Below are positions 12,126 to 31,003 of a stretch of 64,000 nt of DNA, piece after piece. The notes under the pieces were generated by a model, which had not been told where the DNA came from, searched no databases, and saw nothing but the letters and a program-made list of their open reading frames with translations. The first letter of the stretch is position 1. The number at the start of each line of letters is the position of its first letter. Location of the stretch: IMG/VR virus record IMGVR_UViG_3300031251_000003, positions 94,107 to 158,106 of that record, one strand, 5' to 3'. Made by a program: the position numbers and the translations under genes. Source of the stretch: a virus.

Positions 12126-12154
12126 TTGACACAGGCGAAGAATTTTGGTATACT
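12126..12154 (+). promoter_or_regulatory. Sigma70 promoter opening the RNA island
   Basis: TTGACA-N17-TATACT. Confidence 0.85.
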
Positions 12155-12169
12155 GTAGTAGATGAGTGA

Positions 12170-12241
12170 GTCCCTATAGCTGAGTGGATTTAGCGGCGGT
12201 CTTCTAAACCGCATACGAGGGTTCGAATCCTTCTAGGGATA
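12170..12241 (+). tRNA. tRNA-Arg(TCT)
   Basis: Cloverleaf; gcggt-CT-TCT-AA-accgc. Confidence 0.9.
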
Positions 12242-12287
12242 TAGAATAAGGTGGTTCGACTCCATGAAAGTCCGGCGAAAATTCTTC

Positions 12288-12316
12288 TTGACAGCAAGAT
12301 CGTCAAGTGGTATCAT
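12288..12316 (+). promoter_or_regulatory. Sigma70 promoter
   Basis: TTGACA-N17-TATCAT. Confidence 0.75.
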
Positions 12317-12597
12317 GTAGTTAGCAAGAAAGGGTTCCTCCGGTCGAAAGACTATGAGCCTTGTAGGTGTCGGGTGACCAGCCTGCTTGGTGATTGGATG
12401 CAAAACCGGGAAGTGTCGATCCAGACTCTAATATCCTCCGCGAGAGGGTGGCGAGGAAGGGGAGCTTCGTAGGGGAGTAGAGAGAATCCTTCCGTATTTT
12501 GGAGAATAGACTGTATTGACGTGGGCGCACGGAACGACGACCATTCGTGGTATGCTAACCCTAGCCCCGTCAATAGAGTCTAGGCTCTATTTTATGC

Positions 12598-12663
12598 TGT
12601 CCATCGTCTAATAGGAAGGACTCCGGCCTCTGCCGGGAACGGGAGTTCGATTCTCTCTGGGCC
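12598..12663 (+). ncRNA. tRNA-like element with 4-nt anticodon loop
   Basis: D arm, ccggc-ctct-gccgg, T arm gggag-ttcgatt-ctctc. Confidence 0.6.
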
Positions 12664-12672
12664 TAAGCAGAA

Positions 12673-12757
12673 CTAAGATTGAGGATCCCGGAAACGTCTT
12701 TTAAAACTGCTCCATCGCTAACATCGTTGGGGTGAGCGAAAGCTGGGGGAGTCTTAG
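12673..12757 (+). ncRNA. GAAACGUCU/AGCGAAAGC RNA module, copy 1
   Basis: Conserved boxes flanked by cccg/tggg and ctaagat/gtcttag stems. Confidence 0.7.
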
Positions 12758-12772
12758 TGATGAGCATAACTT

Positions 12773-12844
12773 GGGGGATCAGTGCTAATGGGGAAACGTT
12801 GCGCTTGCACCGCAAAGAAAAGAGTTCGACTCTCTTATCCTCCA
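12773..12844 (+). tRNA. tRNA-Ala(TGC)
   Basis: G3:U70; ttgcg-CT-TGC-AC-cgcaa. Confidence 0.9.
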
Positions 12845-12942
12845 CTGCAAGGAAGAAGAGTAGGTTGAGGGACGACGAATCCCAAAATTACCCGAATCGA
12901 TGAATCCTTTGAGGGTGTACGGGTCGTGCCGTTACCCAATAC

Positions 12943-13014
12943 GGGCGGTTAGTGCTAGTGGGAACACGCCGGTTTTGCATACCGGAGTCAGGAGTTCGAC
13001 TCTCCTACTGTCCA
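12943..13014 (+). tRNA. tRNA-Ala(TGC)
   Basis: G3:U70; ccggt-TT-TGC-AT-accgg. Confidence 0.9.
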
Positions 13015-13180
13015 TATGAAAGCTGATGCGGGATATAAGATGGTGGTAAGAAGGGGTACCGCACCAAATGAGTAGCCACCTTAAGCTTTCAGAATTGCCG
13101 ATGCCATTAGATCAGGTGGCTTAAGCAACAGCGGAACCTGCTAAAGTGGTTCGCGGGCAACCGGCGACAGGTTGCAACAT

Positions 13181-13252
13181 GGGCGAGTAGTTCAGCGGGA
13201 GAATAGCTGCTTTACACGCAGAAGATCGTAGGTTCGATCCCTACCTTGCCCA
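13181..13252 (+). tRNA. tRNA-Val(TAC)
   Basis: Cloverleaf; ctgc-TT-TAC-AC-gcag. Confidence 0.9.
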
Positions 13253-13435
13253 CTACATATTAGATTTGAATTAGCTGGCGAACCCCTTGACCGGGGTTGT
13301 GATGGGTTCGATTCCCAGGTGAGCGTGGTTGCCATGCGAGAGCCGTCAGTGAAGTTGAGTCATTCGGGATAGATCTCACGGTTACACTATTATTCTTAAA
13401 TAATGGTAGTGTGTTGGTTCGAGTCCAACGGTCTA

Positions 13436-13520
13436 GCCCCTATGTACCGCTGGAAGCCGGAAACGTCTCCGATGATACTTTAATCTAGGATATAGCGAAA
13501 GCTGGCTGAGGTATTAGGGC
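13436..13520 (+). ncRNA. GAAACGUCU/AGCGAAAGC RNA module, copy 2 (inside a ~550-nt structured non-coding region)
   Basis: Conserved boxes flanked by gccg/tggc. Confidence 0.7.
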
Positions 13521-13813
13521 GTCTTTGAATGACTTTATCTTAGACCGGAAGCGAATATGTACGGAGTCAAGCGTGACATATGGCTAACTCTAGTTGTCTC
13601 TAGAACTTGACAGAAGGAGACAACGTGGTCTTATACGGCGGTCGAGTCCCATTAAGTTGGGATTCCCGCCACCAATTTGAAACACCCGCTCCGGGGTAGG
13701 AGGCGTGAACTAGCGTAACTAGTTCGGAGGCTACTTGATCCTAATCGTAGCAGGGTTCGCCCTAAACAGCGTAATCAAGCGTGGTTAGCTCTAACGGGTT
13801 AATCACGCTCCAT

Positions 13814-13896
13814 ACCCCGCTGGTGAAATTAGGTAAACACGCAGGTCTTAGAAATCTGTGCCGCGAGGCTTACGAGTTCGATTCTCGTGTGGGGTA
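13814..13896 (+). tRNA. tRNA-Leu(TAG)
   Basis: Long variable arm; caggt-CT-TAG-AA-atctg. Confidence 0.9.
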
Positions 13897-14113
13897 CTTG
13901 GGGTGAGGTAGTCGTTGTCCGGGATAGCTTCCTAAGGAATAGGCTAGCGCTGGCTGATTTGCGTAAATCTGCACACCCTAAAACTTGAGTAAGGGCGAAG
14001 TCTGCTACATGCAGCAGATAGGTTAGCTTGTGCCGTGGTGTAAGGAGCCTGGGGTCATAGAATCCCGACAGACCCTCTGTATTTCTTCCATTACCGTGAT
14101 GGTAATGTGTAGG

Positions 14114-14350
14114 ATGTCTGGATACGAAAGAGAACAACAAAAAGAAACTCAGTACACCGATACGGCGGATTTCCCCCGTTACTCTGACTATGCTGGTTTT
14201 AGTTCTTATTCTTATCCTACCTATCCTGCTCAGAGTCGAACGTACGTCGTTCAAACTAGTAATTGGGATCAGACACAAGACTACACCGCTTCTGGTCTAG
14301 CTGCTACTCAAGCAACCTGGACAAGAACTGAACTGCATAACACTAATTAG
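14114..14350 (+). CDS. Small Tyr/Thr-rich protein
   Basis: ORF from ATG 14114, just upstream of the next gene. Confidence 0.45.
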   Translation: MSGYEREQQKETQYTDTADFPRYSDYAGFSSYSYPTYPAQSRTYVVQTSNWDQTQDYTASGLAATQATWTRTELHNTN

Positions 14351-14358
14351 AGGTTAAC

Positions 14359-14970
14359 ATGGCTAAGAGAAAGTTTGACGATAAGGCTACGTGGCGCACC
14401 GATACTTGGGGTATCGATATGACCCAGCCTGCTCGTGCCGAGCGCGTATTTGACCCTAACGATACCGTTACCGATGATCCCACTAAGGGTGGAATCGCTG
14501 GTTCTGGTGATAATACCAAGGTCACTCATGCTGCTGGTGTTATGTACACAGGATTGAATGATAATCCGGCTGTCGCTGTAGCTCGTGCATACGACGATTT
14601 CCAGAATCTTACTCCTGCTGTAACTGCGACTTTGACAACATCTTTAACGGGCGCGAACAATGACGTGACTTTCAGTGCTCTTCGTTCCGGTGCATCAGGA
14701 AACGCAATATCTGTAACCTATGTCGATCCAGGTGGTGCTACTGCTACTCTTGGGGTAACAGTCTCCGGTACCGATATCACGGTCAACCTAGGTCGAGCAG
14801 CATCAGCTATTAACACCACAGGTACGTTGCTCATCGCAGCAGTACAGGCAGTTCCCGCAGCAGCGGCATTGGTCAATGTGGCCAACGCAGCAGGTAATGA
14901 TGGAACTGGTCTAGTAACTGCTTTGACTAAGACGAACCTTGCTGGTGGTTTGGAAGCTTTCTACTCTTAA
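14359..14970 (+). CDS. Ala/Thr/Gly-rich putative virion protein
   Basis: GAGG RBS; 203 aa with a structural-protein-like composition. Confidence 0.55.
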   Translation: MAKRKFDDKATWRTDTWGIDMTQPARAERVFDPNDTVTDDPTKGGIAGSGDNTKVTHAAGVMYTGLNDNPAVAVARAYDDFQNLTPAVTATLTTSLTGANNDVTFSALRSGASGNAISVTYVDPGGATATLGVTVSGTDITVNLGRAASAINTTGTLLIAAVQAVPAAAALVNVANAAGNDGTGLVTALTKTNLAGGLEAFYS

Positions 14971-14973
14971 CGC

Positions 14974-15002
14974 TTGACAGCCAGTACCCTGTGTGATATA
15001 AT
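14974..15002 (+). promoter_or_regulatory. Sigma70 promoter
   Basis: TTGACA-N17-TATAAT. Confidence 0.85.
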
Positions 15003-15036
15003 ACACAGGTAAGGGAAAACGACAGAAAGGATTCCC

Positions 15037-15393
15037 ATGGCACTTTCAGCAGCAGAGCGCGAGACAGTGATTGTCATCTCGGATGCAGACGACTTCTGGA
15101 CTATCCATACTTGTCAGCGCCGGATGGTGACCCAGCTTCTCAAGAACCCGGTCGCCAAGATCCTTGAGAACACCCTCTTCGAGGGTACTCGGTTCCTCGT
15201 TGCTGAGGTTCCTGCGAATGGTATCACTGTTCGCAAGTCGAACGGTCGCAAGGCCAAGTCTTCGCAGCCGCGTAAGGCGACTCTCCGGACAATGCCGGGT
15301 GAGAAGTGCGGCGGCACCAAGTCTGATGGAAGTAAGTGCGGTGCAATCGCAGTGAGTGGTACGGGGTTCTGCCGCCATCATCAGAGCAAGTGA
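15037..15393 (+). CDS. Hypothetical protein with C-terminal C..C..CxxH zinc finger
   Basis: ERETVI N-terminus; KCGGTKSDGSKC...FCRHH. Confidence 0.7.
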   Translation: MALSAAERETVIVISDADDFWTIHTCQRRMVTQLLKNPVAKILENTLFEGTRFLVAEVPANGITVRKSNGRKAKSSQPRKATLRTMPGEKCGGTKSDGSKCGAIAVSGTGFCRHHQSK

Positions 15394-15539
15394 AGTGCAG
15401 TTGAAGTGAAGTAGTAGTTGAAATTGTAGTTAGTCTTCTTGGGAGGGTCAGGAGTCGGTTGTGTCCTTCGATCTAAGGAGGTATACAAATTACGACTAAG
15501 GTAGTAAGAGGGACTCCTGACCCTCACAGGGGACTTTAC

Positions 15540-15613
15540 GGGTGTGTAGCTAAGCGGTTCAAGGCAGGGGACTCTTAATCCCAAGATCACAGGTTCGAAT
15601 CCTGTCACACTCA
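15540..15613 (+). tRNA. tRNA-Lys(CTT)
   Basis: Cloverleaf; CT-CTT-AA loop. Confidence 0.9.
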
Positions 15614-15955
15614 TCTAAGCACGGTGGATAGGAACTATCCGCAGGAGCGATACGAGGATACAAGACCGATCAGGGGCCACTGTGAGGTCTTCTCTACCTC
15701 TGGCAGGGTCGCGGTGGGTACTAACTCATCTAGTGTATATGCCGGTCTTAGCCCGAATGCAGATGTTTCAGCGTATACATCTAGTAGGGCTTTACTTTGT
15801 AACACCCCTCTCAAGTACACGGAGGAAGGATACGAACGGTACGCAGCCAAAAGGGTCTGCCATATTGAGAACCGAGTAACAATGCTCAATACTTACCTGA
15901 TTTAATCAGGTATTTTACCGTCATCCGTCTGGTCGTACCGGGATGACGTTAGAAA

Positions 15956-16041
15956 CTCCAAGTGGTGGAATTAGGTATACACGTCAGGTTGAGAGCCTGA
16001 TGGCCATCGCGGTCTTGCAGGTTCAAATCCTGTCTTGGAGA
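15956..16041 (+). tRNA. tRNA-Leu(GAG)
   Basis: tcagg-TT-GAG-AG-cctga; long variable arm. Confidence 0.9.
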
Positions 16042-16063
16042 TCTCTTACAGGAGGTAAGAAAT

Positions 16064-16192
16064 ATGAATCCAATCTTTTGGCTTCTCTTGATTCTCTTGA
16101 TTGTCATCCTTTTGGGTGGAGCAGTATTCAGCCATCTAATCTGGGTATTGATCATTGTAGTTGTCATCCTTTTCTTCCTCTTCGGAAGGTAA
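16064..16192 (+). CDS. 42-aa hydrophobic membrane peptide (below the ORF-track cutoff)
   Basis: AGGAGG RBS; MNPIFWLLLILLIVILLGGAVFSHLIWVLIIVVVILFFLFGR. Confidence 0.7.
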   Translation: MNPIFWLLLILLIVILLGGAVFSHLIWVLIIVVVILFFLFGR

Positions 16193-16240
16193 GTCATGGC
16201 CGTTCCCTATTCTTATGCGGTCTGGGGTAACGGCCACCAT

Positions 16241-16313
16241 GGTTCTCTAGCTCCAACGGTAGAGCGGCTGTTTGAAGCACAGCGCGTTGGCGGTTCGAAT
16301 CCGTCGGGAACCA
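16241..16313 (+). tRNA. tRNA-Phe(GAA)
   Basis: gctgt-TT-GAA-GC-acagc. Confidence 0.9.
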
Positions 16314-16485
16314 CTGTAGTCGAAGATCCAAGAGCCTCGCTCCACTAAAGTTGGCTGTCTTATAATACAGCACCGGAAGAGAAACTCAAGGGGAGACGAA
16401 ATTACGGAGACAAATAGATTAAGCTCCGTAAGATTTATGTTCTATCCTGATGCGTGAATGTTGATCACTAACAAAAGGAGAGAAC

Positions 16486-16686
16486 ATGAAGACAGCAGTA
16501 GGTACTGAAGATCTAACAGGCGCAGTAGTGGTTGATGTTGGCTACAATGATGTGACTCTTGAGAAGGATGGAGTCAGGTTTACTCTTGAACTTGAGTATG
16601 AAGCCGACTACAACAGTTTCTGCGAAGGTAGTTGCTCTTGTTGTGGTAGTTCTGGCTCATCGTACTTCCGGGCCTATAAGGAATAA
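16486..16686 (+). CDS. Small Cys-rich hypothetical protein
   Basis: AAGGAG RBS; CEGSCSCC. Confidence 0.6.
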   Translation: MKTAVGTEDLTGAVVVDVGYNDVTLEKDGVRFTLELEYEADYNSFCEGSCSCCGSSGSSYFRAYKE

Positions 16687-16736
16687 AGAATCGTCTGTCA
16701 CGCCGGATCCTGACGTAAAACTTAGTCCGGCCACAT

Positions 16737-16809
16737 GGCTCTATAGACTAGTTGGTTAGGTCGCTACCCTCTCAAGGTAGAAGTCGGAGTTCGAGTCTCC
16801 GTAGAGCTA
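16737..16809 (+). tRNA. tRNA-Glu(CTC)
   Basis: ctacc-CT-CTC-AA-ggtag. Confidence 0.9.
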
Positions 16810-16812
16810 CTA

Positions 16813-16892
16813 TGATCACGCAGCCACAGGGCAGGGCGCGGCGACCCGACACTTTCTCGGGGAACATGGAGGTTCGAATCCTCTCGGGATCA
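16813..16892 (+). ncRNA. Aberrant tRNA-like element
   Basis: Acceptor-like ends and intact T arm; cccga-cactttc-tcggg loop lacks U33; abnormal D region. Confidence 0.55.
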
Positions 16893-17124
16893 CTGTGGGA
16901 TAGAAAGGGCAACAAAGCGATATAACTTGACGCATCAGGGAGAGTTAGTCCCCTACTATCCCCCTATACTTTAAGAACGTGTGTGTGACGCTGTGACGCA
17001 GCAGAGGCACACTTTCGGGCGGGGGCGTCACCCCACGGTACCGGCGCGGTTTGGGACAACCGTTGTAAGACGACCGGAGGCGGCTTAGCGGCTGCTGAGA
17101 GGGTTCTCAAATGTTCTTATACTA

Positions 17125-17195
17125 TGGCGTATCGTTCAACGGCAGGACGGGTGGCTGTTAACCATCTAATTCAGGTTCGAATCCTGGTATGCCAG
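17125..17195 (+). tRNA. tRNA-Asn(GTT)
   Basis: ggtgg-CT-GTT-AA-ccatc. Confidence 0.9.
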
Positions 17196-17266
17196 CTTTA
17201 AATTCGTAGGGCACTACTCGCTGGTCGGACTAGTTTGCTGGCGAGCAACCCTACGGCGCGTTTCAT

Positions 17267-17337
17267 TCCCCGGTCGTCTAACGGTAGGGCAGATGGCTGT
17301 TAACCATCGTATGAGGGTTCGATTCCTTCCTGGGGAG
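17267..17337 (+). tRNA. tRNA-Asn(GTT)
   Basis: gatgg-CT-GTT-AA-ccatc. Confidence 0.9.
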
Positions 17338-17501
17338 CTTCGCAGTACATTGTTCGTCGTCCGGGAGCATCGCGAGGCATAACGGGTAGCTCAGGGTTAA
17401 ATTCCCTGATAGGGCGGCTAGCCCTAGACTGAACGTATTGATCCTTACTTGTTAAAGCGGGTTTGGGGAATGTGGCAATGTATTGCGCCGGTTTTAATCG
17501 T

Positions 17502-17542
17502 CGCGGATTAGAGAAAAGGTCATCTCGTGAGTCTCATAAACT
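17502..17542 (+). pseudogene. Orphan 5' half of tRNA-Met(CAT)
   Basis: cgcggat acceptor strand, D arm and gagtctcataaact; no T arm follows. Confidence 0.7.
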
Positions 17543-17573
17543 TTTCATGAGTTTACGAACACTAATAGTAGAG

Positions 17574-17942
17574 ATGCCATACAAAGATCCCGAAAAACAG
17601 AAAGAAGCACAGGCTAGATTAAGTGCTGCTTATTATCAAAAGAATAAGAAAAAGATGAAAGTTCGTGCAAAGCAGTATACATACGAACATCGAGAACGTC
17701 TTAAGCAGTTTTTGATAGAGATAAAGTCTGCTCCATGTATGGACTGTGGAAATTCGTTTCCATCATGTGTAATGGACTTTGATCACCGTGAGGGTGAAGA
17801 GAAAAACGGTTGTGTGTCTGTAATGGTGAACCGCGCACTAAGCTTAGATAGAATTAAACAAGAAGTATCTAAGTGCGACCTAGTATGTGCGAACTGTCAT
17901 CGGATTCGAACCTCCACGCGGAAACAAGCCCTGGTGGGCTAG
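17574..17942 (+). CDS. HNH homing endonuclease
   Basis: CMDC...DFDHR...KCDLVCANCHRIR. Confidence 0.85.
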   Translation: MPYKDPEKQKEAQARLSAAYYQKNKKKMKVRAKQYTYEHRERLKQFLIEIKSAPCMDCGNSFPSCVMDFDHREGEEKNGCVSVMVNRALSLDRIKQEVSKCDLVCANCHRIRTSTRKQALVG

Positions 17943-17990
17943 GGAGTCTCATAAACTCTCTCATGGTCAGTTCGATTCTGACTTCCGCTA
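17917..17990 (+). tRNA. tRNA-Met(CAT), with an initiator-like 1:72 mismatch
   Basis: ggagt-CT-CAT-AA-actct; 5' half overlaps the 3' end of the HNH gene. Confidence 0.8.
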
Positions 17991-18149
17991 TTTCAAAATG
18001 CAACTAGGCCGACATAGTTGCGCCATATGGTGAAATGATCGGCATACAATTCTGTCTAACCTAGATAGGAGCGCAAATAATCATGAAGTAAGTTATAACC
18101 TTTGCTCGTATTTGAAGGTTAAATGATTATTCCGCATATACGTGAGACG

Positions 18150-18245
18150 AATGCCGCAGAAGCCGGAAACGTCTAGCAGGGTCAAGTCCGCGATAATCAG
18201 CTTGATGCATTCCCTGTGAATACAGCGAAAGCCGCCGCCGAGGTT
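18150..18245 (+). ncRNA. GAAACGUCU/AGCGAAAGC RNA module, copy 3
   Basis: gaagccggaaacgtct...agcgaaagc. Confidence 0.65.
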
Positions 18246-24918: not shown

Positions 24919-24921
24919 TAA

Positions 24922-24992
24922 CAGGATGTTGTATAGTGGTAATATACTTGCTTCGGGAGCATGAGTCAGAGGTTCGAGTCCTCTCATCCTGA
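24922..24992 (+). tRNA. tRNA-Pro(CGG)
   Basis: TT-CGG-GA loop. Confidence 0.85.
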
Positions 24993-25048
24993 TATGTACT
25001 AGCTTTCTTATGGTGATCTCGCCCTACTAATGGGTAGGTGATAAATAA

Positions 25049-25216
25049 ATGAGACAACATATAGAAGGTGGATTACTTTCATTCTTAGGATTATGTGCTG
25101 CTGCTCTCTTCTTTGGTCTTCTCGTATTTGGAGGATCCATTAGCGATTGGCCATTAGAGGTAGCAGGCTTCTTTGCTCTAGCTATTGCGTTCGTTCTGGA
25201 ACGCTTAGGGTTGTAA
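25049..25216 (+). CDS. 55-aa two-TM membrane peptide
   Basis: MRQHIEGGLLSFLGLCAAALFFGLLVF... Confidence 0.6.
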   Translation: MRQHIEGGLLSFLGLCAAALFFGLLVFGGSISDWPLEVAGFFALAIAFVLERLGL

Positions 25217-25451
25217 GACTCCGCTGGAATGCGGCGCATAGGGAGGTTCTTCGAGCCGTTGATCTATGTGATGGTGGAAACCGTGCCCGTTGAGCCGGGT
25301 AAAGGTACGACTAGCCATCGTATCGAAAGCGTAGGGCAGCGCGGTTGTAGCTGGTGGTGAGGGCGCAGCTATGGTATGGCTAAACGCCGAATCGTTCGAA
25401 GCGACAAGGCTTACGGGGTTGGTAATTCTCACGACTTGCCGATCCCGCCAA

Positions 25452-25523
25452 TGCGGTGTAGTCTAATGGTAGTGACTTCCGGCTCTGAACCGGACAGTGT
25501 TGGTTCGAATCCAGCCTCCGCAG
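25452..25523 (+). tRNA. tRNA-Gln(CTG)
   Basis: tccgg-CT-CTG-AA-ccgga. Confidence 0.9.
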
Positions 25524-25813
25524 CTAACTCTAACGAGTAACAAGTGATTACAGCCGCTGATTGCCACGAGCGGTAAAGGATGGTCTTTTATGCCGGACGC
25601 TAGAATATGGCAGGTATAAAACTAAGTGTGTGGGTACCCGTAGCAATCACAGCCGCCGTTTTGTAATCCAGGATGTGGATTGTCGAGGTATGGTATAGAC
25701 ACCACTTCTAGAAATCCACCATACATGCGCTACCTTGGAAAGGTGTAACGGTTCATAACCTGCCTTTCCTCCAATCCCCACTTAGGCTGAAATATACCTA
25801 GGTGGGGAACCAA

Positions 25814-25894
25814 GCATATGTTGAGCAAAGGCTAGCTCCGCTGTCTGTAAAACAGCCGTCTCCGACTATGTAGGTTCGAATCCTACCATATGCA
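25814..25894 (+). tRNA. tRNA-Tyr(GTA)
   Basis: gctgt-CT-GTA-AA-acagc; long variable arm. Confidence 0.9.
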
Positions 25895-25898
25895 CTGA

Positions 25899-25970
25899 TG
25901 GGAAATCGGTTAATGGTTAAACCAAGAGCCTTTGAAGCTCTGACTTTGGGTTCGAGTCCCAATTTCCCTA
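25899..25970 (+). tRNA. tRNA-Gln(TTG)
   Basis: agagc-CT-TTG-AA-gctct. Confidence 0.9.
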
Positions 25971-26007
25971 TAGGTCAAGCTGGTGGGCCTGAAGCACTAG
26001 CATTTAC

Positions 26008-26081
26008 GGAAGCGTAGCTCAGTTGGTTAGAGCACCGGCCTGTCACGTCGGTAGTCGCGGGTTCGAGTCCCGTCGTTTCCG
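26008..26081 (+). tRNA. tRNA-Asp(GTC)
   Basis: ccggc-CT-GTC-AC-gtcgg. Confidence 0.9.
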
Positions 26082-26490
26082 CTCTTTGGACGATGACCTG
26101 TGGAAGGATTTATGCCAAACTTCCTAAAGGGTAAAAAGCTAGCGAGTAAGGCGAAGCTGGGGCACCACAAAATGCGTCAGTGGATGAAAGCTAGCGAATC
26201 AAGCTGCTGTAGGCATAACGGTAGTGTAATGAGCGAGTCTAACTCAAGTATTTTCGCTCCACCGTCCAAGGTTTTAAGTTGACCAATCATAATTTGTATG
26301 ATATACTAAGTCATGGTTACTAAAACGGACATAAAAACTCTTGAATTCGATGTAGATGGGAAGACAATCGAGCTTCAAGTTAAATGTGAGTTGGTTAGTA
26401 AAACTTGGAAACTTACGATTAATTGTAAGGATCCCGGTCGTGTTGAGTTTGAAACCATCATGAGTAAGATGGGTGTTATAAGATAAATAA

Positions 26491-26566
26491 CGGGGTGTGG
26501 TGTAGTCCGGTCTAACACGCTTGCCTGTCACGCAAGAGAACGAGGGTTCAAATCCCTTCATCCTGA
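26491..26566 (+). tRNA. tRNA-Asp(GTC)
   Basis: cttgc-CT-GTC-AC-gcaag. Confidence 0.9.
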
Positions 26567-26636
26567 TTGAAGATCGTCTAAAGTAGGACGCCTGGTTTAA
26601 CGGGAGATTCTAGAGGTTAACGTCTCTGGCTTCAAA
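26567..26636 (+). pseudogene. Degenerate tRNA-like element
   Basis: ttgaag/cttcaa ends and D arm present; decayed anticodon and T loops. Confidence 0.4.
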
Positions 26637-26642
26637 ATACTT

Positions 26643-26717
26643 GCCTCGTTGGTCTAGCGGTCTAGGATACCGGGTTTTCACCCCGCGTGAACAAGGGTTC
26701 GAATCCCTTACGAGGTA
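26643..26717 (+). tRNA. tRNA-Glu(TTC)
   Basis: TT-TTC-AC loop. Confidence 0.85.
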
Positions 26718-27101
26718 CCTTAATAAAAATTAGACACCAGGGTTTCAGAGCAAAGCGGTAGCTCCGAGCGCTCTTATGAGATCTTGGGTGTTGTGACGGA
26801 AAAGTGCCTATCTTGCTTCCGCAAAGCGGTGAGCTAGGTATTGAACGTATAAGCGGCGAAAGCTCTGGGCAACCGGAGCCGGTAGCAGCCGAAGTAAAGG
26901 AATCGAAACCAGCGGCTTAGCGGCTGAGGGACTAGGTTCTGGGCGGGGGTTGTACCTCGTACAGTGGTGGCTCGACAGGGCAGCGGAAGTAGAAGAGAAA
27001 CCATATGACAAGGTAGCTTGCCTCTTCTTGCGGGATACCAAGACCCGCCAACACAGTCTAAATCTTGGGGATGTTTGGGTAAAACTGAGCATCCCCACCA
27101 A

Positions 27102-27177
27102 CCTTCAGTAGCTCAACGGTAGAGCGGTACGCTGTATGGAAGCGTTCGGGTTGCGAGTTCAATTCTCGTCTGAGGGT
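27102..27177 (+). tRNA. Atypical tRNA with extended anticodon stem (ATG in loop)
   Basis: Canonical acceptor, D and T arms; gtacgct-gtatgga-agcgttc. Confidence 0.55.
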
Positions 27178-27242
27178 CTTCTCGCTCGACACTCCCCTCC
27201 TAGGCCAATGATCTAGCCCGTGGGAAAGTGCGGCGAGTTCTA

Positions 27243-27315
27243 GCCAGCCTCGTATAACGGCATATTACACCGCACTTGTAATGCGGGTATTTCGGTTCAA
27301 TTCCGAAGGTTGGCT
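27243..27315 (+). tRNA. tRNA-Thr(TGT)
   Basis: ccgca-CT-TGT-AA-tgcgg. Confidence 0.9.
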
Positions 27316-27420
27316 CTCGTGTGTGGAAATGAAACTATGTGACGAGCGCGTTCCGGCATAGAAGTAGTGGCCTTTCTGGGTTCGAGTCCCAGCACCGATT
27401 TATCAAAACAAGGAGGCACT

Positions 27421-27774
27421 TTGCTGAAATGGCTAAAGTTGCCGATACTAACTGTACTAATCCTAAGTAGTTTGGGAAATCTCAGGACAAACGGCGCTAA
27501 AGCTGTCTCAGTTCGTAGTCTCACTGTTTTAGAGACTGCCTATTGTCTTAGGGGAACTATGGCCAACGGCCACTATGTTCACCCTGGGGCAATAGCGGTT
27601 GATCCAAGAGTTATTCCTATGGGATCTCGTATCTTTGTCCCCGGCTATGGTTGGGGAACAGCAGAGGATACGGGTGGTGCAATTATCGGCTATCATATCG
27701 ATGTATGGATGAGCGATTGCTCACAAGCTATGAGATCTACCCGATGGAATGTACGGATCAAAATTTCACGTTGA
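27421..27774 (+). CDS. Secreted 3D-domain (MltA-like) cell-wall protein
   Basis: TAY, IAVDPRVIPMGS, AEDTGGAI.G..IDVW; AAGGAGG RBS before TTG. Confidence 0.9.
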   Translation: MLKWLKLPILTVLILSSLGNLRTNGAKAVSVRSLTVLETAYCLRGTMANGHYVHPGAIAVDPRVIPMGSRIFVPGYGWGTAEDTGGAIIGYHIDVWMSDCSQAMRSTRWNVRIKISR

Positions 27775-27818
27775 GTGGGAAGGTAACAAATATAGGTGGC
27801 ATTTGGGGCCAAATGGCT

Positions 27819-27911
27819 ATGCCGAAATTACTAGAAGAGTTAGCTAAATGTGATGTTGTTTGTGCTAACTGCCATCTTCGTAGACATCATTCCGCGTTGT
27901 TCGTAGACTAA
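27819..27911 (+). pseudogene. HNH endonuclease C-terminal remnant
   Basis: EELAKCDVVCANCHLRRH, paralogous to the HNH at 17574; stop codon lies inside tRNA-His. Confidence 0.75.
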
Positions 27912-27970
27912 TTGGTTAAGTCCCTACCCTGTGAAGGTAGCCTATACGGGTTCGAATCCCGCCGAACAAC
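27896..27970 (+). tRNA. tRNA-His(GTG)
   Basis: G-1:C73; ctacc-CT-GTG-AA-ggtag. Confidence 0.9.
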
Positions 27971-28037
27971 TCAAGGGGATCTCCTTGATATGCCGTGGTT
28001 CGTCGGTTACGAATTCTTGGAGCAAGATCCCCTCCAT

Positions 28038-28151
28038 GCAGCAGTCGCTTAAGTGGGAAAGCACCTACTGATAAAGAAGTCTCCATGGTTATAGACCGGT
28101 CAAACGGTGGAGATTTGTAGGAGATCATTGGTTCGAATCCAGTCTGTTGTT
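28038..28151 (+). ncRNA. tRNA scaffold with a 48-nt structured insert in place of the anticodon loop
   Basis: Acceptor gcagcag/ctgttgt, D arm, cctac/gtagg stem and T arm are all intact. Confidence 0.75.
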
Positions 28152-28155
28152 CTTT

Positions 28156-28230
28156 GAGAGATTAGCATAATTGGACTAATGTTCCAGGTTGTGATCCTGG
28201 CTAATTTCGGTTCGAATCCGAAATCTCTCT
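28156..28230 (+). tRNA. tRNA-His(GTG)
   Basis: ccagg-TT-GTG-AT-cctgg. Confidence 0.8.
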
Positions 28231-28323
28231 TGCCTTGATAACCCCAGTCGCTTCGGCGGCTCCGAGATAGGCACGGAATGAAACAGACCATTGGGAGCAG
28301 ATGGCTTTAGCCGATCTGTTTTC

Positions 28324-28396
28324 GCCTGAGTAGTGATAACGGTCAGCACACATCCTTGGTAAGGATGGAGTTTGGGTTCGATTCCCAGCTTGGGCT
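28324..28396 (+). tRNA. tRNA-Thr(GGT)
   Basis: catcc-TT-GGT-AA-ggatg. Confidence 0.9.
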
Positions 28397-28397
28397 T

Positions 28398-28529
28398 ATG
28401 AGTAACTTCAAACGCAAGAAATCAAGACGTTCGGTAAAGTGTACCATGTGTACACCATTTAGATGGTTAGGAAATACCAAAGAACGGCGACCCTTTAAAG
28501 ACCGTCGCCAACTTCAGAAGGAGGAATAG
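28398..28529 (+). CDS. 43-aa basic CxxC peptide
   Basis: MSNFKRKKSRRSVKCTMCTPFRWLGN... Confidence 0.55.
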   Translation: MSNFKRKKSRRSVKCTMCTPFRWLGNTKERRPFKDRRQLQKEE

Positions 28530-28531
28530 CA

Positions 28532-29260
28532 TTGGCAGCAGTTGATCAGGCAATCTATGTTATCATCGATGGCAGTGGCTCGATGAGTAGCGTGAAGCAT
28601 GATGTAGTCAAGGGCATTAACGATTTCATTACGGAACAGCAGGACGACATCAAGGGCACACAGGATGTTGTGTTGTTTTCTCTGACATCCTTTGACACGA
28701 ATGTCCAGGAAATCTACGTGAGAGAGAATCTAGAGCTAGTCAATCCTGTCTCTTTGAAGGATACTTACTTGGGCGGTGGTACATCTCTTCTAGATGCTAT
28801 TGGCCGTACACTGACTAAGGCTGAGGATGAACAGGCTGATCGTAACATCGTCGTGATCTATACCGATGGTGGCGAGAATTCAAGTCATGAGTTCACTAAG
28901 ACTCAGGTTGGTGATTTGATCGACAAGCTGACTGGTACAGGAGATTGGCAGATCATCTATCTCGGTGCTGAGTTTGCCGACTTCGCAGAAGATCGTCAGG
29001 GCTTTGGTGCTATTGCTGGTGCCGCAGCGGGTGGTACCTTTACTGGTATGAACACGTCGAAGAATGATGTTGGTGCCACGTTCTCTAACCTGTCCCAGAC
29101 ATCCATCTATTACAGAGGGATGCACACCAATTCTGCTAAGAATCTTGTTGCTCGCGGTGGAGTCGTGGCCGCAGCAGCGGAGGATATTGGCCTTACCTGG
29201 AACGAGGATGACACAACGGTTATTCCGGCCGATGTAGTGGAACCTAAGAAGAAAGCCTAG
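28532..29260 (+). CDS. von Willebrand factor A domain protein
   Basis: MIDAS DGSGSM, GGTSLLDAI, TDGGENSS. Confidence 0.9.
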   Translation: MAAVDQAIYVIIDGSGSMSSVKHDVVKGINDFITEQQDDIKGTQDVVLFSLTSFDTNVQEIYVRENLELVNPVSLKDTYLGGGTSLLDAIGRTLTKAEDEQADRNIVVIYTDGGENSSHEFTKTQVGDLIDKLTGTGDWQIIYLGAEFADFAEDRQGFGAIAGAAAGGTFTGMNTSKNDVGATFSNLSQTSIYYRGMHTNSAKNLVARGGVVAAAAEDIGLTWNEDDTTVIPADVVEPKKKA

Positions 29261-29301
29261 GGGAGAGGACGCCATCTGCTCTCTAAAAAATGATGGCACT
29301 A

Positions 29302-29372
29302 GCCAGTTTAGTATAGTGGGAATACTCGCCTTTCGTAAGGGCGAAACTAGGGTTCGATTCCCTAATCTGGCT
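29302..29372 (+). tRNA. tRNA-Thr(CGT)
   Basis: cgcct-TT-CGT-AA-gggcg. Confidence 0.9.
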
Positions 29373-29408
29373 CTGCTTATCAGGCGCGTCCCGGTAGCTC
29401 CGGGTTAA

Positions 29409-29480
29409 GAGCGTGTAGTTCAGCGGGAGAACGTCTGGGTGACAACCAGAAGATCGTAGGTTCGATTCCTACCATGCTCA
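29409..29480 (+). tRNA. tRNA-Val(GAC)
   Basis: tctgg-GT-GAC-AA-ccaga. Confidence 0.9.
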
Positions 29481-29548
29481 TACGGCCCTTGTGGGGTCCA
29501 AAACAATACAAATTCTATTTAGATCTGAAAGGGATAAGGTGAATAGAT

Positions 29549-29737
29549 ATGAAGACTCGTTGGATGATTATTCCGACCGTGGTGGCCCTTTTAGGTATGA
29601 TTGTTGTGTTCGTAGTCGGGTATCTTACTTACGGTATTTGGGCCGGTTTCTTTGTTTCTATTCTTTTCGGAGTTATTAGCTTGATTCTTCTCATCTGGGC
29701 TGCTATAATGGATGGAGAAGATAATACGCATGTATAG
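29549..29737 (+). CDS. Small two-TM membrane protein
   Basis: Hydrophobic 62-aa ORF with RBS. Confidence 0.6.
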   Translation: MKTRWMIIPTVVALLGMIVVFVVGYLTYGIWAGFFVSILFGVISLILLIWAAIMDGEDNTHV

Positions 29738-29800
29738 CAAAGTTGGTATTGCGCTTCCTTGCCATGGAAGAGGCCACGAGTTCGAGTCTCGTTACATGCT
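29728..29800 (+). tRNA. tRNA-Gly(GCC)
   Basis: cttcc-TT-GCC-AT-ggaag. Confidence 0.9.
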
Positions 29801-29804
29801 TTAC

Positions 29805-29876
29805 GCACCAGTAATGTAGTGGTTAACATGACAGTCTTCCAAACTGTATACCAGAGTTCGAATCTCTGTTGGTGCA
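29805..29876 (+). tRNA. tRNA-Gly(TCC)
   Basis: acagt-CT-TCC-AA-actgt. Confidence 0.9.
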
Positions 29877-29880
29877 TCGT

Positions 29881-29953
29881 TGCTCCGTAGATTAGAGGAC
29901 AAATCACTTCCCTGCGAAGGAAGAAATCACGAGTTCGAATCTCGTCGGGGCTA
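29881..29953 (+). tRNA. tRNA-Arg(GCG)
   Basis: cttcc-CT-GCG-AA-ggaag. Confidence 0.85.
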
Positions 29954-29990
29954 TAGTTCAGCTAACACCGATTTATGATATAATAGGTAT

Positions 29991-30317
29991 CTCAGTAGAT
30001 GGACATACGCTGCATCGTGTATCTATCGGTGTAGAGGAAGTTCGGGACATCCTTCTAGGGGAGCCAAGGAACCTAGAGAAAAACGTGCGGCAGTAGTGGG
30101 AGTCAGGTGCATTGGGTAAACCTTCGGGCATAATGCGGTGCTATCACCCTCCTGACGCCTTACCACGAGAATCGGCGGGATGCGATCACAAGCAGATACA
30201 TCAGCTACGATGATATCGGGTAGTGAGCAGCCCTTCGGGGCCAGGGATTGAACAGACCCTGAGATAGATGTATGTCGCCCTTGACAGGGTACAAAATTCC
30301 GGCTATAATCTACTGAA
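29991..30317 (+). ncRNA. rnpB: RNase P RNA (catalytic subunit)
   Basis: P1 tcagtagat/atctactga, P2 gacatac/gtatgtc, CR-I GAGGAAGTTCGGGAC, P5 catcc/ggatg, AGATAGATG, CR-V ACAAAATTCCGGCTAT. Confidence 0.9.
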
Positions 30318-30326
30318 GCAATGTAC

Positions 30327-30398
30327 GGCGATAAGCCTGCGGTGGGCAACTTCTCTCATAAGGAAGTCTGAGGTAAGGTTCGATTCCTACTATCGCTA
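30327..30398 (+). tRNA. tRNA with CAT anticodon (Met or Ile2)
   Basis: cttct-CT-CAT-AA-ggaag. Confidence 0.8.
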
Positions 30399-30400
30399 CT

Positions 30401-30661
30401 ATGAGCAAACACAACAAAACCAAGATCGAAAAGGTACTAAGGAACGAAGTCAACGTACTACGTTTCAAGCCGAAGACAGATCCTAAGGACTCTAAGCCAG
30501 AGAAGAAGATCGGCAAGTTCGCTAACTGGTGTCGTCTTCAGGGTCATCCTGCAACGTGCGGGTGTGCCTATAGCAAGATCGAAATCTCGGCTAAGAACCA
30601 TCCAGTTAGTAATGGAGACTGTGTTAACGGCAGAGACTGCCCTAACCACCCGAGAAGGTAG
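30401..30661 (+). CDS. Basic Cys/His hypothetical protein
   Basis: 86-aa ORF filling the gap between two tRNAs. Confidence 0.55.
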   Translation: MSKHNKTKIEKVLRNEVNVLRFKPKTDPKDSKPEKKIGKFANWCRLQGHPATCGCAYSKIEISAKNHPVSNGDCVNGRDCPNHPRR

Positions 30662-30675
30662 TGTACCCAATCTAA

Positions 30676-30747
30676 TCCCTTGTAGGTTAGAGGATAAACC
30701 AGTGGTTTCCTAAACCACAATCCCGAGTTCGAGTCTCGGCAGGGGGA
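30676..30747 (+). tRNA. tRNA-Arg(CCT)
   Basis: gtggt-TT-CCT-AA-accac. Confidence 0.9.
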
Positions 30748-30749
30748 CT

Positions 30750-30950
30750 ATGAAAAGAAAACTAAAGTGCAGCACTTGTGGCACCACGACAAATACAGCT
30801 ACAGGGAAGCCTTTGTATCTGTTAGGTTCCAGTGATGCGTCTCTAATGCTTCTTCCCGCTGAGATAGAATGTTGGGAATGTGGGGAGAAGAGACGCGATG
30901 CCGATCAGAAGAGAAAGACCTTAGATCGGTACGCTAAGGCAAAATCTTAG
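30750..30950 (+). CDS. Small zinc-ribbon protein
   Basis: CSTC...CWEC. Confidence 0.55.
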   Translation: MKRKLKCSTCGTTTNTATGKPLYLLGSSDASLMLLPAEIECWECGEKRRDADQKRKTLDRYAKAKS

Positions 30951-30964
30951 AATACGGTAAATCC

Positions 30965-31003
30965 AGCCCGGATGAGAGAAAATCTCATCCGGGCTTTCCT
31001 TTT
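30965..31003 (+). terminator. Rho-independent terminator closing the RNA island
   Basis: agcccggatgaga-gaaaa-tctcatccgggct followed by a T-rich tail. Confidence 0.85.

What the first reader, a model, noticed from the sequence alone, without database searches (positions are those of the whole stretch)
12126..31003. 19-kb phage RNA island: a translation take-over or decoy system
Seen: between a promoter and a terminator lie about 46 tRNAs (all 20 amino acids), tmRNA, RNase P RNA, uS12, a 23S GTPase-centre copy, a permuted tRNA-like RNA and tRNA mimics. Most gaps between tRNAs hold a non-coding 80-550-nt domain closed by its own helix. Established: RNase P and 3' processing of flanking tRNAs releases the RNA between them, and host anti-phage toxins cut tRNA and rRNA. 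Inference: the tRNAs act as punctuation that excises a library of structured RNAs mimicking, protecting or remodelling the host translation machinery. This goes beyond the usual phage tRNA cluster.
Basis: partly seen in the sequence, partly recalled or inferred. Interest (0 to 1): 0.92.

Follow-up and report, generated by a model that had tools for sequence, protein, structure and literature searches.

The report
Phage tRNA island with embedded RNAs
An uncultured 158-kb phage carries a 19-kb block holding a near-complete tRNA set, a tmRNA, a stripped-down RNase P-like RNA, a copy of a 23S rRNA protein-binding domain, ribosomal protein uS12 and at least two large new structured RNAs, laid out so that tRNA-processing enzymes could cut the extra RNAs free; about half of the gaps between tRNAs are ordinary small protein genes.

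Summary
- The island has 46 tRNAs covering all 20 amino acids, a tmRNA and uS12.
- It has a copy of 23S helices H43/H44, split by an insert of about 140 nt.
- It has an RNase P-like RNA (Rfam class A, 41.7 bits against a threshold of 100, E 7.7e-12). The S-domain is non-standard. Helices P1, P2 and P4 are kept in two related phages.

The general claim about the gaps fails.
- Of 34 gaps of 80 nt or more, 15 hold likely protein genes: a sigma factor, HNH, VWA, 3D, uS12 and small ORFs.
- "Closing helices" are no more common than in shuffled sequence.
- Most non-coding spacers cannot be aligned between relatives.
- The island has at least six strong internal promoters, so it is not one operon.

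A subset is real and new.
- Two RNAs, 25217-25451 and 26720-27101, covary as strongly as the tmRNA control.
- A "clamp" module recurs four times.
- Five 11-13-bp hairpins ending in NCCA sit exactly 1 nt before the next tRNA. No tRNA gene encodes CCA.

tRNA punctuation is therefore plausible for these RNAs but is not shown. Decoy or take-over functions are conjecture. This scan has noted CCA minihelices and a phage RNase P RNA on other phage DNA. I found no published description.

The parts
12126..12154 (+). sigma70-type promoter (TTGACA-17-TATACT, TG-extended) ahead of the first tRNA
   Evidence: conserved block 12100-12319 in both relatives
12170..30748 (+). array of 46 tRNA genes (20 amino acids, about 40 anticodons). 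None encodes CCA. 40 of the 47 tRNA and tmRNA genes are followed by T.
   Evidence: the same gene order in L009 and L011/L012
12686..12750 (+). clamp module copy A: CCGGAAACGUCU-[hairpin]-AGCGAAAGCUGGGG
   Evidence: P1 covaries between copies
13455..13512 (+). clamp module copy B
   Evidence: the MFE fold forms the clamp
13779..13812 (+). 13-bp hairpin + UCCA, 1 nt before tRNA-Leu(tag)
   Evidence: the same site in L009 keeps a hairpin + CCCA with a different stem
14030..15393 (+). three conserved small protein genes (14030-14350, 14359-14970, 15037-15393), with a perfect promoter at 14974
16198..16239 (+). hairpin + ACCA, 1 nt before tRNA-Phe
   Evidence: L009 has a hairpin + ACCA at the same site
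17463..17942 (+). HNH endonuclease gene. Its 3' end overlaps tRNA-Met. An orphan tRNA-Met 5' half lies at about 17502-17542.
18115..18262 (+). conserved non-coding core containing clamp copy C (18161-18245)
   Evidence: present in all three phages, with 1-2-nt indels and three compensatory pairs (CAGGG/CCCUG to CGAGA/UCUCG). The alifold z is only -1.5.
20925..21443 (+). sigma-70 family factor gene filling the Ile-Ile gap
21786..21906 (+). clamp module copy D (CAAAGAAACGUCU ... AGCGAAAGCUUUGG) enclosing tRNA-Phe 21819-21891
   Evidence: sequence reading. The MFE fold does not form it on its own.
21946..22271 (+). tmRNA (tag ANANMSVPDFIPDWVMDESLVAA), with a perfect promoter at 22177-22205 inside its 3' part
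   Evidence: alifold z -10.9
22892..23293 (+). ribosomal protein uS12 gene, with K42C, R85I, K87P and P90R relative to bacterial S12
   Evidence: L009 has a 65-69% identical copy that shares only K87P; absent from L011/L012
24625..24833 (+). mimic of the 23S rRNA GTPase-associated centre (H43/H44). It has a closing stem AAGAGUUAG/CUAUCUCUU and an insert of about 140 nt at 24669-24808.
   Evidence: Compensatory changes against L009 lie in H43 (U-A to G-C) and in the closing stem (two pairs), read from alignment A1.
25049..25216 (+). small 55-aa ORF shared with L011
   Evidence: weak codon score
25217..25451 (+). novel structured RNA of about 235 nt, present in all three phages. It ends in hairpin + GCCA (25415-25450), 1 nt before tRNA-Gln.
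   Evidence: z -9.5; 18 compensatory pairs against 5.5+-2.3 in shuffles; the codon score of the overlapping 43-aa ORF is not coding-like
25775..25812 (+). 12-bp hairpin + ACCA, 1 nt before tRNA-Tyr. A second hairpin + UCCA lies at 25737-25773.
   Evidence: L009 has a hairpin + GCCA before its tRNA-Tyr
26720..27101 (+). novel structured RNA of about 380 nt, between tRNA-Glu and the next tRNA. It ends in a 12-bp hairpin + ACCA (27067-27100).
   Evidence: z -7.3; 20 compensatory pairs against 8.8+-2.5; no Rfam family; present in L011, absent from L009
28038..28151 (+). tRNA-shaped RNA with a hairpin of about 41 nt inserted at the anticodon loop
   Evidence: not found in the relatives
28532..29260 (+). 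VWA-domain protein gene (phrog_7371)
29991..30321 (+). RNase P-like RNA. It has a class A catalytic core (P1-P4, CR-I, CR-IV, CR-V, GGU), a non-standard S-domain and its own extended -10 box at 29975-29983. A perfect promoter at 30281-30309 lies in its 3' part.
30965..30995 (+). strong intrinsic terminator (13-bp stem, T tail) closing the island

Best explanation
This is the RNA-gene island of a large uncultured tailed phage. It is transcribed from several strong sigma70-type promoters and ends at one strong terminator.

It supplies a near-complete tRNA set and a tmRNA. It also carries a reduced RNase P-like RNA, which would need the host RnpA protein.

Interleaved with these are about 20 small protein genes, including uS12 and a sigma factor, and a limited set of conserved structured RNAs:
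- a copy of the uL11-binding domain of 23S rRNA;
- two large new RNAs;
- a recurring clamp module.

Inferred steps:
1. RNase P cuts at tRNA 5' ends.
2. An RNase Z-type enzyme cuts after the discriminator base. The genes lack CCA and are followed by U.
3. A CCA-adding enzyme, for which the phage encodes its own candidate, completes the tRNAs.
4. The same cuts release the RNAs lying between tRNAs.
5. Several of these RNAs end in an 11-13-bp hairpin plus NCCA, one base before the next cut. This gives them a tRNA-like 3' end that should resist exonucleases, resist RNase Z and be repairable.

The net purpose is probably to keep phage translation running independently of the host's tRNA supply and maturation. 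The 23S copy and uS12 may additionally tune or shield the ribosome.
For: Shown:
- The gene content.
- The same tRNA order in two relatives whose uS12 and ORFs are 50-69% identical.
- Three perfect and three 11/12 sigma70 promoters (the first, at 12126, heads the island), and no strong internal + strand terminator.
- No encoded CCA, and T after 40 of 47 genes.
- CCA at positions -4 to -2 before 6/47, 6/45 and 3/41 tRNAs in the three phages, against about 0.7 expected in each. Hairpins are kept at orthologous sites with different stem sequences.
- Alifold z of -9.5 and -7.3 for two spacer RNAs, against -10.9 for tmRNA and about 0 for three CDS controls.
- RNase P-like RNA: full-model hit, E 7.7e-12. 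P1 has three different but complementary sequences. P2 is conserved. P4 has two compensatory pairs.
- 23S copy: with compensatory pairs against L009.
- PolyA_pol/CCA-adding head domain in the same genome.
- A polynucleotide-kinase-like ATPase next to the island, and RtcB next to the island in a relative.

From established knowledge (mine, not checked here):
- CCA is an anti-determinant for RNase Z.
- Bacterial RNase P accepts hairpin-NCCA substrates.
- The T4 tRNA cluster yields two stable non-tRNA RNAs.
- Mitochondrial transcripts are punctuated by tRNAs.
Against: - No RNA data. Co-transcription, cleavage sites and stability are all inferred.
- The RNase P-like RNA scores far below Rfam's threshold and lacks the usual specificity domain. 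The two relatives' versions get no Rfam hit, and no rnpA is in the genome. It could be inactive or do something else.
- Only three independent phage sequences exist, so covariation rests on few events.
- Most non-coding spacers are not conserved, and single-sequence fold z-scores are modest.
- Several tRNA-like pieces occur only in this phage, near a homing endonuclease. That fits gene decay.
- Internal promoters mean that some RNAs need no punctuation at their 5' end.
- The hairpin-NCCA units could themselves be cut off by RNase P rather than serve as 3' caps.
Confidence: 0.6

Rival explanations
1. This is an ordinary large-phage tRNA cluster. The material between tRNAs is small genes, promoters, homing-endonuclease debris and decaying tRNA copies. 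The conserved pieces are cis-acting processing, stability or UTR elements, not free functional RNAs.
For: - 35% of the island is likely CDS, and 15 of 34 large gaps are coding.
- An HNH gene sits beside a duplicated tRNA-Met half.
- Six orphan T-arms and several tRNA-like pieces are absent from the relatives.
- Only 15% of non-coding bases are alignable.
- Closing helices are at chance level.
- RNA 25217-25451 lies directly 3' of a small ORF, and clamp copy D flanks a tRNA.
Against: - The covariation in two RNAs of 235 and 380 nt is as strong as in tmRNA. That is hard to explain for a simple UTR.
- The 26720 RNA has no adjacent ORF.
- An RNase P-type core and a 23S-domain copy are types of RNA that act in trans.
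- The precise hairpin-NCCA-N-tRNA geometry recurs in three phages.
Confidence: 0.25
2. This is an anti-defence decoy set. The tRNA-shaped RNAs without a normal anticodon, the NCCA hairpins and the 23S copy soak up host toxins that attack tRNA ends, anticodon loops or the ribosome, or soak up uL11. The full tRNA set replaces damaged host tRNAs.
For: - tRNA-like RNAs with an altered anticodon region.
- NCCA hairpins.
- RNA-repair-type genes at the island borders: a PNK-like ATPase and RtcB in a relative.
- The 23S copy keeps the H43 and H44 loops that form the uL11 site.
- The 23S copy and uS12 are both present in two phages and both absent from the third. With n=3 this is weak.
Against: - No toxin, target or binding was tested.
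- Most odd tRNA-likes are not conserved.
- The host is unknown.
- No uL11 gene or partner protein is encoded.
- A full tRNA set is equally explained by codon supply.
Confidence: 0.15

Closest known systems
Large-phage tRNA clusters with tmRNA and translation genes (huge phages, PMC7162821; viral ribosomal proteins, bioRxiv 10.1101/174177)
   Same: Dozens of co-oriented tRNA genes, a tmRNA, and a phage copy of a ribosomal protein. The proposed role is redirecting or sustaining translation.
   Different: The genome here is only 158 kb yet decodes nearly all codons. The ribosomal protein is uS12, which the huge-phage paper does not list (it names S4, S1, S21 and L7/L12). An RNase P-like RNA, a 23S-domain copy and covarying spacer RNAs sit inside the array. 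PMC7162821 never mentions RNase P (0 occurrences).
tRNA punctuation (animal mitochondrial transcripts) and the two stable non-tRNA RNAs of the phage T4 tRNA cluster (my knowledge, not checked here)
   Same: RNAs lying between tRNAs can be released by RNase P and 3' tRNA processing.
   Different: Here there are several internal promoters. The released RNAs would carry an encoded hairpin-NCCA end. Nothing has been shown experimentally.
Bacterial RNase P RNA class A (Rfam RF00010), and reduced forms such as the archaeal type T RNA that lacks the specificity domain (my knowledge)
   Same: P1-P4 core, CR-I, CR-IV and CR-V sequences, and a GGU in the P15 region. P1 and P4 covary.
   Different: It scores 41.7 bits against a threshold of 100. 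The specificity domain is not alignable. It is 270-450 nt long in the three phages. It is phage-encoded, has a promoter embedded in its 3' part, and no rnpA is present.
23S rRNA GTPase-associated centre (H43/H44, the uL11 and thiopeptide site), and rRNA-mimicking ribosomal-protein leader RNAs
   Same: 44 of 50 consensus positions match. The H43 and H44 loops and the closing helix are kept.
   Different: It is free-standing between two tRNA-Pro genes and split by an insert of about 140 nt. It is not upstream of any ribosomal protein gene, and the phage has no uL11 gene.
ROOL and GOLLD large ornate RNAs (PMC5737381; bioRxiv 10.1101/2024.12.08.627333)
   Same: Large structured RNAs of unknown function, often in phages or prophages and next to tRNA genes, possibly co-transcribed with them.
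   Different: No Rfam match to either. The RNAs here are smaller (235 and 380 nt) and unrelated in sequence.
Bacterial and phage Y RNAs (YrlA) with a tRNA-like domain (PMC4201824)
   Same: tRNA-mimicking non-coding RNAs in phages. YrlA is cleaved by RNase P and CCA-tailed. A GCGAAAG-type motif is loosely reminiscent of YrlA's GNCGAAN0-1G.
   Different: The YrlA model scores at most 16.7 bits. There is no Ro60/TROVE gene. The motif differs at a conserved position.

Membership tests
Phage tRNA gene cluster with tmRNA | many co-oriented tRNA genes with standard cloverleaves | tested here: met
   46 by ARAGORN; 43 at or above the Rfam threshold
Phage tRNA gene cluster with tmRNA | tmRNA with a tRNA-like domain and a tag reading frame | tested here: met
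   RF00023 96 bits; tag peptide found; alifold z -10.9 across three phages
Bacterial RNase P RNA class A (RF00010) | score at or above Rfam's gathering threshold (100 bits) | tested here: not met
   41.7 bits, E 7.7e-12 in a 376-nt scan. No hit in the relatives' orthologous spacers, nor by the genome search.
Bacterial RNase P RNA class A (RF00010) | catalytic core: P1-P4 helices and CR-I, CR-IV, CR-V | tested here: met
   the alignment spans model positions 1-367. P1, P2 and P4 strands were located in all three phages. P1 covaries fully and P4 has two compensatory pairs.
Bacterial RNase P RNA class A (RF00010) | specificity domain (P7-P14 with CR-II/III) | tested here: not met
   model positions of about 75-230 are replaced by unaligned inserts
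Bacterial RNase P RNA class A (RF00010) | pre-tRNA 5' cleavage activity, with an RnpA protein partner | not testable with these tools
   no PF00825 gene in the phage genome; a host protein would be needed
23S rRNA GTPase-associated-centre mimic | sequence and helices of 23S H43/H44 | tested here: met
   LSU model 1091-1152, 21 bits; 44/50 consensus positions after joining the halves; 31/35 to a real 23S; compensatory pairs against L009
23S rRNA GTPase-associated-centre mimic | binds uL11 or another ligand of that domain | not testable with these tools
tRNA-punctuated transcript | non-tRNA RNAs directly abut tRNA processing sites | tested here: met
   26720-27101 touches tRNA-Glu at its 5' end and ends 1 nt before the next tRNA; five NCCA ends lie 1 nt before a tRNA
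tRNA-punctuated transcript | one continuous precursor transcript | tested here: inconclusive
   no strong internal + strand terminator, but at least six strong promoter matches, five of them inside the island
tRNA-punctuated transcript | discrete processed RNAs accumulate | not testable with these tools
tRNA acceptor minihelix | a stem of about 12 bp, a discriminator base and a 3' CCA | tested here: met
   13779-13812, 16198-16239, 25415-25450, 25775-25812, 27067-27100
tRNA acceptor minihelix | T-loop sequence (UUCRA) in the hairpin loop | tested here: not met
   the loop sequences printed lack it
ROOL / GOLLD | match to the Rfam models | tested here: not met
   no hit at E<=1 or E<=10. The filters did miss RNase P, so a weak match elsewhere cannot be excluded.
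YrlA Y RNA with Ro60 | YrlA model match and a neighbouring TROVE (Ro60) gene | tested here: not met
   best 16.7 bits against a threshold of 69; no TROVE gene
Ribosomal protein uS12 (PF00164) | full-length match above the threshold | tested here: met
   88.7 bits against 22.3; aligns over residues 1-110 to solved S12 chains

The most novel reading that the evidence does not exclude
The phage makes its own set of free, trans-acting translation-directed RNAs.
- A minimal RNase P ribozyme whose 3' end is cut by RNase P at the adjoining tRNA.
- A stand-alone copy of the uL11/GTPase-centre domain of 23S rRNA that titrates uL11 or a factor or toxin aimed at that site. It would act together with a variant uS12.
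- Two large new RNAs.

All would be released by tRNA-processing enzymes. All would carry an encoded hairpin-NCCA tag that makes them stable and repairable by the phage CCA-adding enzyme.
Probability: 0.3. Interest if true: 0.9.

Novelty: new variant of a known kind. Interest (0 to 1): 0.8.

Why it matters
Phage tRNA clusters are usually read as codon-supply devices, and the DNA between the tRNAs is ignored. Here that DNA holds several things:
- RNAs under clear structural selection;
- an RNase P-type core, for which I found no published phage example;
- a free-standing copy of a ribosomal RNA domain;
- a precise end signal (hairpin-NCCA, one base before the next tRNA).

If these RNAs are made, tRNA processing doubles as a release system for phage non-coding RNAs. 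Phages would then reach further into the translation and RNA-maturation machinery than ribosomal proteins and tRNAs alone. The finding also gives testable objects: a very small RNase P candidate of 270-330 nt, and two compact new RNA folds.

Tried and rejected
**Leads that failed**
- The wide Rfam scan and the genome search found no RNase P. This was a filter loss, overturned by the narrow scan.
- No Rfam family matches 26715-27105 or 13254-14358.
- The YrlA model scores at most 16.7 bits.
- TROVE, RtcB, RnpA, uL11 and SmpB genes are all absent from the phage genome.
A real PolyA_pol head domain lies elsewhere in the genome.

**Claims that failed a control**
- "Closing helix" of spacers: not above shuffles.
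- Positional-homologue spacers are mostly unalignable.
- The MAFFT/alifold test of the RNase P-like RNA is uninformative (z +0.9). I located the helices by hand instead.

**Searches for more relatives**
- Exact-motif scans of viral, metagenome and species-genome collections gave only the same phage group (L009's contig; L013, which is identical to L009) or chance hits in GC-rich coding DNA.
- megablast against the phage collection found nothing related. The DNA polymerase is only about 30% identical to cultured phages, so the host stays unknown.
- blastn of the island against two real 23S genes found no second rRNA-like piece.

**Other**
- The clamp motif does not fit a kink-turn, a bulge-helix-bulge motif or the Y RNA GNCGAA motif, judged by reading the sequence.

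Full report
**What is there**

The window is the last 64 kb of a 158,106-bp IMG/VR virus record that CheckV rates complete. Around the island lie these genes:
- baseplate and tail genes;
- a helicase;
- a polynucleotide-kinase-like ATPase on the minus strand;
- ribonucleotide reductase;
- a DnaB-like helicase;
- a DnaE-type polymerase;
- terminase.

The polymerase is only about 30% identical to any cultured phage, so the host is unknown.

ARAGORN finds 46 tRNA genes and one tmRNA between 12170 and 30748, all on the + strand. They cover all 20 amino acids and about 40 anticodons. Rfam confirms the tmRNA (96 bits) and 43 tRNAs, plus weaker tRNA-like hits at 12597, 12774 and 28038.

**Relatives**

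Two independent relatives carry a syntenic island with the same tRNA order:
- L009, a 72-kb IMG/VR contig;
- L011 and L012, two overlapping loci from one 105-kb contig of an NCBI metagenome assembly.

L013 is identical to L009. Shared proteins are 40-69% identical. That distance is useful for telling coding, structured and unconstrained sequence apart.

**The gaps are not mostly non-coding domains**

- Family searches identify an HNH endonuclease (17463-17942), a sigma-70 factor (20925-21443), uS12 (22892-23293), a 3D-domain protein (27367-27774) and a VWA protein (28532-29260).
- tblastn shows further small ORFs conserved at the protein level.
- A codon-usage score trained on the phage's long genes supports about 20 CDSs in all.
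- The island is 22% tRNA-type RNA, 35% likely CDS and 44% other sequence.
- Of 34 gaps of 80 nt or more, 15 carry a CDS and 19 do not.
- Only 15% of the non-coding bases align to a relative. Most positional-homologue spacers are unalignable.
- Single-sequence MFE z-scores average about -1.5. Several lie near -3.5.
- Helices closing the whole spacer are no more frequent than in dinucleotide shuffles.

**Transcription**

- The promoter at 12126 and the terminator at 30965-30995 are real matches.
- The island also contains three perfect TTGACA-17-TATAAT sites, at 14974, 22177 and 30281.
- There are three 11/12 sites, at 12126, 12288 and 24132.
- Three perfect matches in 20 kb cannot be chance, so this is a multi-promoter region. 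No strong + strand terminator lies inside it.

**RNase P-like RNA**

- The 19.6-kb Rfam scan missed it.
A 376-nt scan then returned RF00010 at 29991-30321: 41.7 bits against a threshold of 100, E 7.7e-12, covering model positions 1-367.
- P1-P4, CR-I (GAGGAAGUUCGGGAC), a GGGUAG, CR-IV and CR-V all align. The specificity domain does not.
- The orthologous Arg(gcg)-Met spacers of L009 and L012 give no Rfam hit, but they contain the same CR-I, CR-IV and CR-V strings.
- P4 shows two compensatory changes.
- P1 is CUCAGUAGAU, GGUGGUAG or AGAACAG in the three phages. Each has a perfect partner just after CR-V. Each is followed by the conserved P2 strand GGACAUAY, which pairs with GUAUGUC.
- I therefore accept a conserved RNase P-type core of 270-450 nt. 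I do not file it as a standard class A member.
- The genome has no rnpA.
- An extended -10 box (TGATATAAT) sits 8 nt upstream.
- The RNA ends about 5 nt before tRNA-Met, so an RNase P cut would make its own 3' end.
- The perfect promoter for that tRNA lies inside CR-V/P1.

**23S copy**

- Rfam's LSU model matches 24628-24685 at positions 1091-1152.
- The second half lies at about 24808-24830, after an insert of about 140 nt closed by AGACU/AGUCU.
- Joined, the two halves match 44 of 50 consensus positions.
- The H43 half is 31/35 identical to a real 23S gene.
- L009 has the element in a shifted position within the same neighbourhood. Compared with the window it shows a U-A to G-C exchange in H43 and two exchanges in the closing stem.
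- L011/L012 lack it, and they also lack uS12.
- No other rRNA-like piece is in the island.

**New structured RNAs**

- RNA 26720-27101 aligns to L011 with 91 predicted pairs, 20 of them compensatory.
- RNA 25217-25451 aligns in all three phages with many compensatory pairs.
- I compared each alignment with column-shuffled versions of itself:

| Alignment | Consensus-energy z | Compensatory pairs (observed vs shuffled) |
|---|---|---|
| RNA 26720-27101 | -7.3 | 20 vs 8.8+-2.5 |
| RNA 25217-25451 | -9.5 | 18 vs 5.5+-2.3 |
| tmRNA (positive control) | -10.9 | 25 vs 9.3+-3.2 |
| three CDS alignments (negative controls) | -1.1 to +0.8 | at shuffle level |

- No Rfam family fits 26720-27101 in a narrow scan. 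The wide scan reported nothing at 25217-25451.
- A shorter core at 18115-18262 is conserved in all three phages. It has 1-2-nt indels and three compensatory pairs, but it is not significant in the shuffle test.
- That core belongs to a recurring clamp module, CCGGAAACGUCU-[cargo]-AGCGAAAGCYGG.
  - Copies lie at 12686, 13455 and 18161.
  - A covarying version (CAAAG.../...CUUUG) lies around tRNA-Phe 21819-21891.
  - Permuted halves lie inside the 23S-copy insert.
- Its nature is unexplained.

**End signals**

- No tRNA gene encodes CCA, and 40 of the 47 tRNA and tmRNA genes are followed by T.
- Five 11-13-bp hairpins followed by NCCA end exactly 1 nt before the next tRNA: 13812, 16239, 25450, 25812 and 27100.
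- CCA at positions -4 to -2 occurs before 6/47, 6/45 and 3/41 tRNAs in the three phages, against about 0.7 expected in each.
- The sites before Leu(tag), Phe and Tyr are shared with L009, with different stem sequences.
- The two strongly covarying RNAs both end in such a unit.
- The genome encodes a PolyA_pol/CCA-adding head domain.
- From established knowledge, CCA blocks RNase Z, and RNase P accepts hairpin-NCCA substrates. The units could therefore be protective 3' caps. Alternatively they could be separately released minihelices.

**tRNA-like oddities**

- Six canonical T-arm hairpins lie outside annotated tRNAs. They include a three-T-arm RNA with a G3:U70 acceptor (19070-19204) and a T-arm / loop-closed acceptor / D-arm arrangement (21592-21691).
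- 28038-28151 is a tRNA body with an inserted hairpin.
- None of these is found in the relatives.
- An HNH gene sits beside a duplicated tRNA-Met half.
- Decay and rearrangement is therefore at least as likely as function.

**uS12**

- The window's copy has K42C, R85I, K87P and P90R at the classical accuracy and streptomycin positions.
- L009 shares only K87P.

**Verdict**

- The island is a real and unusual RNA-gene block.
- The generalisation about the gaps is wrong.
- The punctuation idea is well motivated for 6-8 elements but untested.
- Decoy or take-over functions remain conjecture.
- Other notes of this scan report CCA minihelices, and one phage RNase P RNA, in other phages.
- My literature searches found no description. 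Such searches cannot prove absence.

Noticed in passing
window 17495-17992: The HNH endonuclease gene ends inside tRNA-Met. An orphan copy of that tRNA's 5' half, up to the anticodon loop, lies at about 17502-17542. A 14-nt string, GAGTCTCATAAACT, occurs at both 17529 and 17944. This looks like the footprint of a homing-endonuclease insertion.
   Followed up: partly
window 27102-27178; L009 14389-14464; L011 18552-18627: This is a conserved odd tRNA. ARAGORN reads a four-base anticodon (taag) in an enlarged loop in both relatives. In the window the loop is one base shorter and is read as His(atg). The acceptor stem starts C1-G72.
   Followed up: partly
window 19070-19204: A 135-nt RNA-like element holds three T-arm hairpins in series. 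Its ends, GGGGUG/CACUCC-A, give a G3:U70 pair and A73, which are alanine identity marks. It is not found in the relatives.
   Followed up: partly
window 21592-21691: A T-arm is followed by a loop-closed 7-bp acceptor-like stem, a D-arm-like hairpin and another hairpin. The arm order is a permuted tRNA-like arrangement. It is not found in the relatives, and it gets no significant YrlA match.
   Followed up: partly
window 22177-22205 and 30281-30309: Perfect TTGACA-17-TATAAT promoters are embedded in the 3' parts of the tmRNA gene and of the RNase P-like RNA gene. The second is 87% conserved in L012.
   Followed up: partly
window 10070-10579 (-); L012 13939-15276: RNA-repair-type genes lie at the island borders. 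The window has a polynucleotide-kinase-like P-loop ATPase. The relative L012 has an RtcB ligase right after its island, while the window's genome has no RtcB.
   Followed up: partly
G000:C1:38869-39249 (outside the window): A 618-aa open frame carries a PolyA_pol (CCA-adding enzyme family) head domain at 90 bits.
   Followed up: partly
window 22892-23293 and 24625-24833; L009; L011/L012: uS12 and the 23S H43/H44 copy are both present in the window and in L009, and both are absent from the third phage. RNA 26720-27101 shows the opposite pattern: it is present in L011 and absent from L009.
   Followed up: no
window 13254-13813: This 560-nt ORF-free spacer has an MFE z of -3.6. It is a patchwork of a T-arm fragment (about 13290-13325), a pseudo-tRNA (13368-13437, 17.6 bits), clamp copy B, an acceptor/T-arm-like piece (13636-13680) and a terminal hairpin-UCCA.
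   Followed up: partly
window 25049-25216: A 55-aa ORF shared with L011 sits between tRNA-Pro and the 25217-25451 RNA. It is absent from L009.
   Followed up: no
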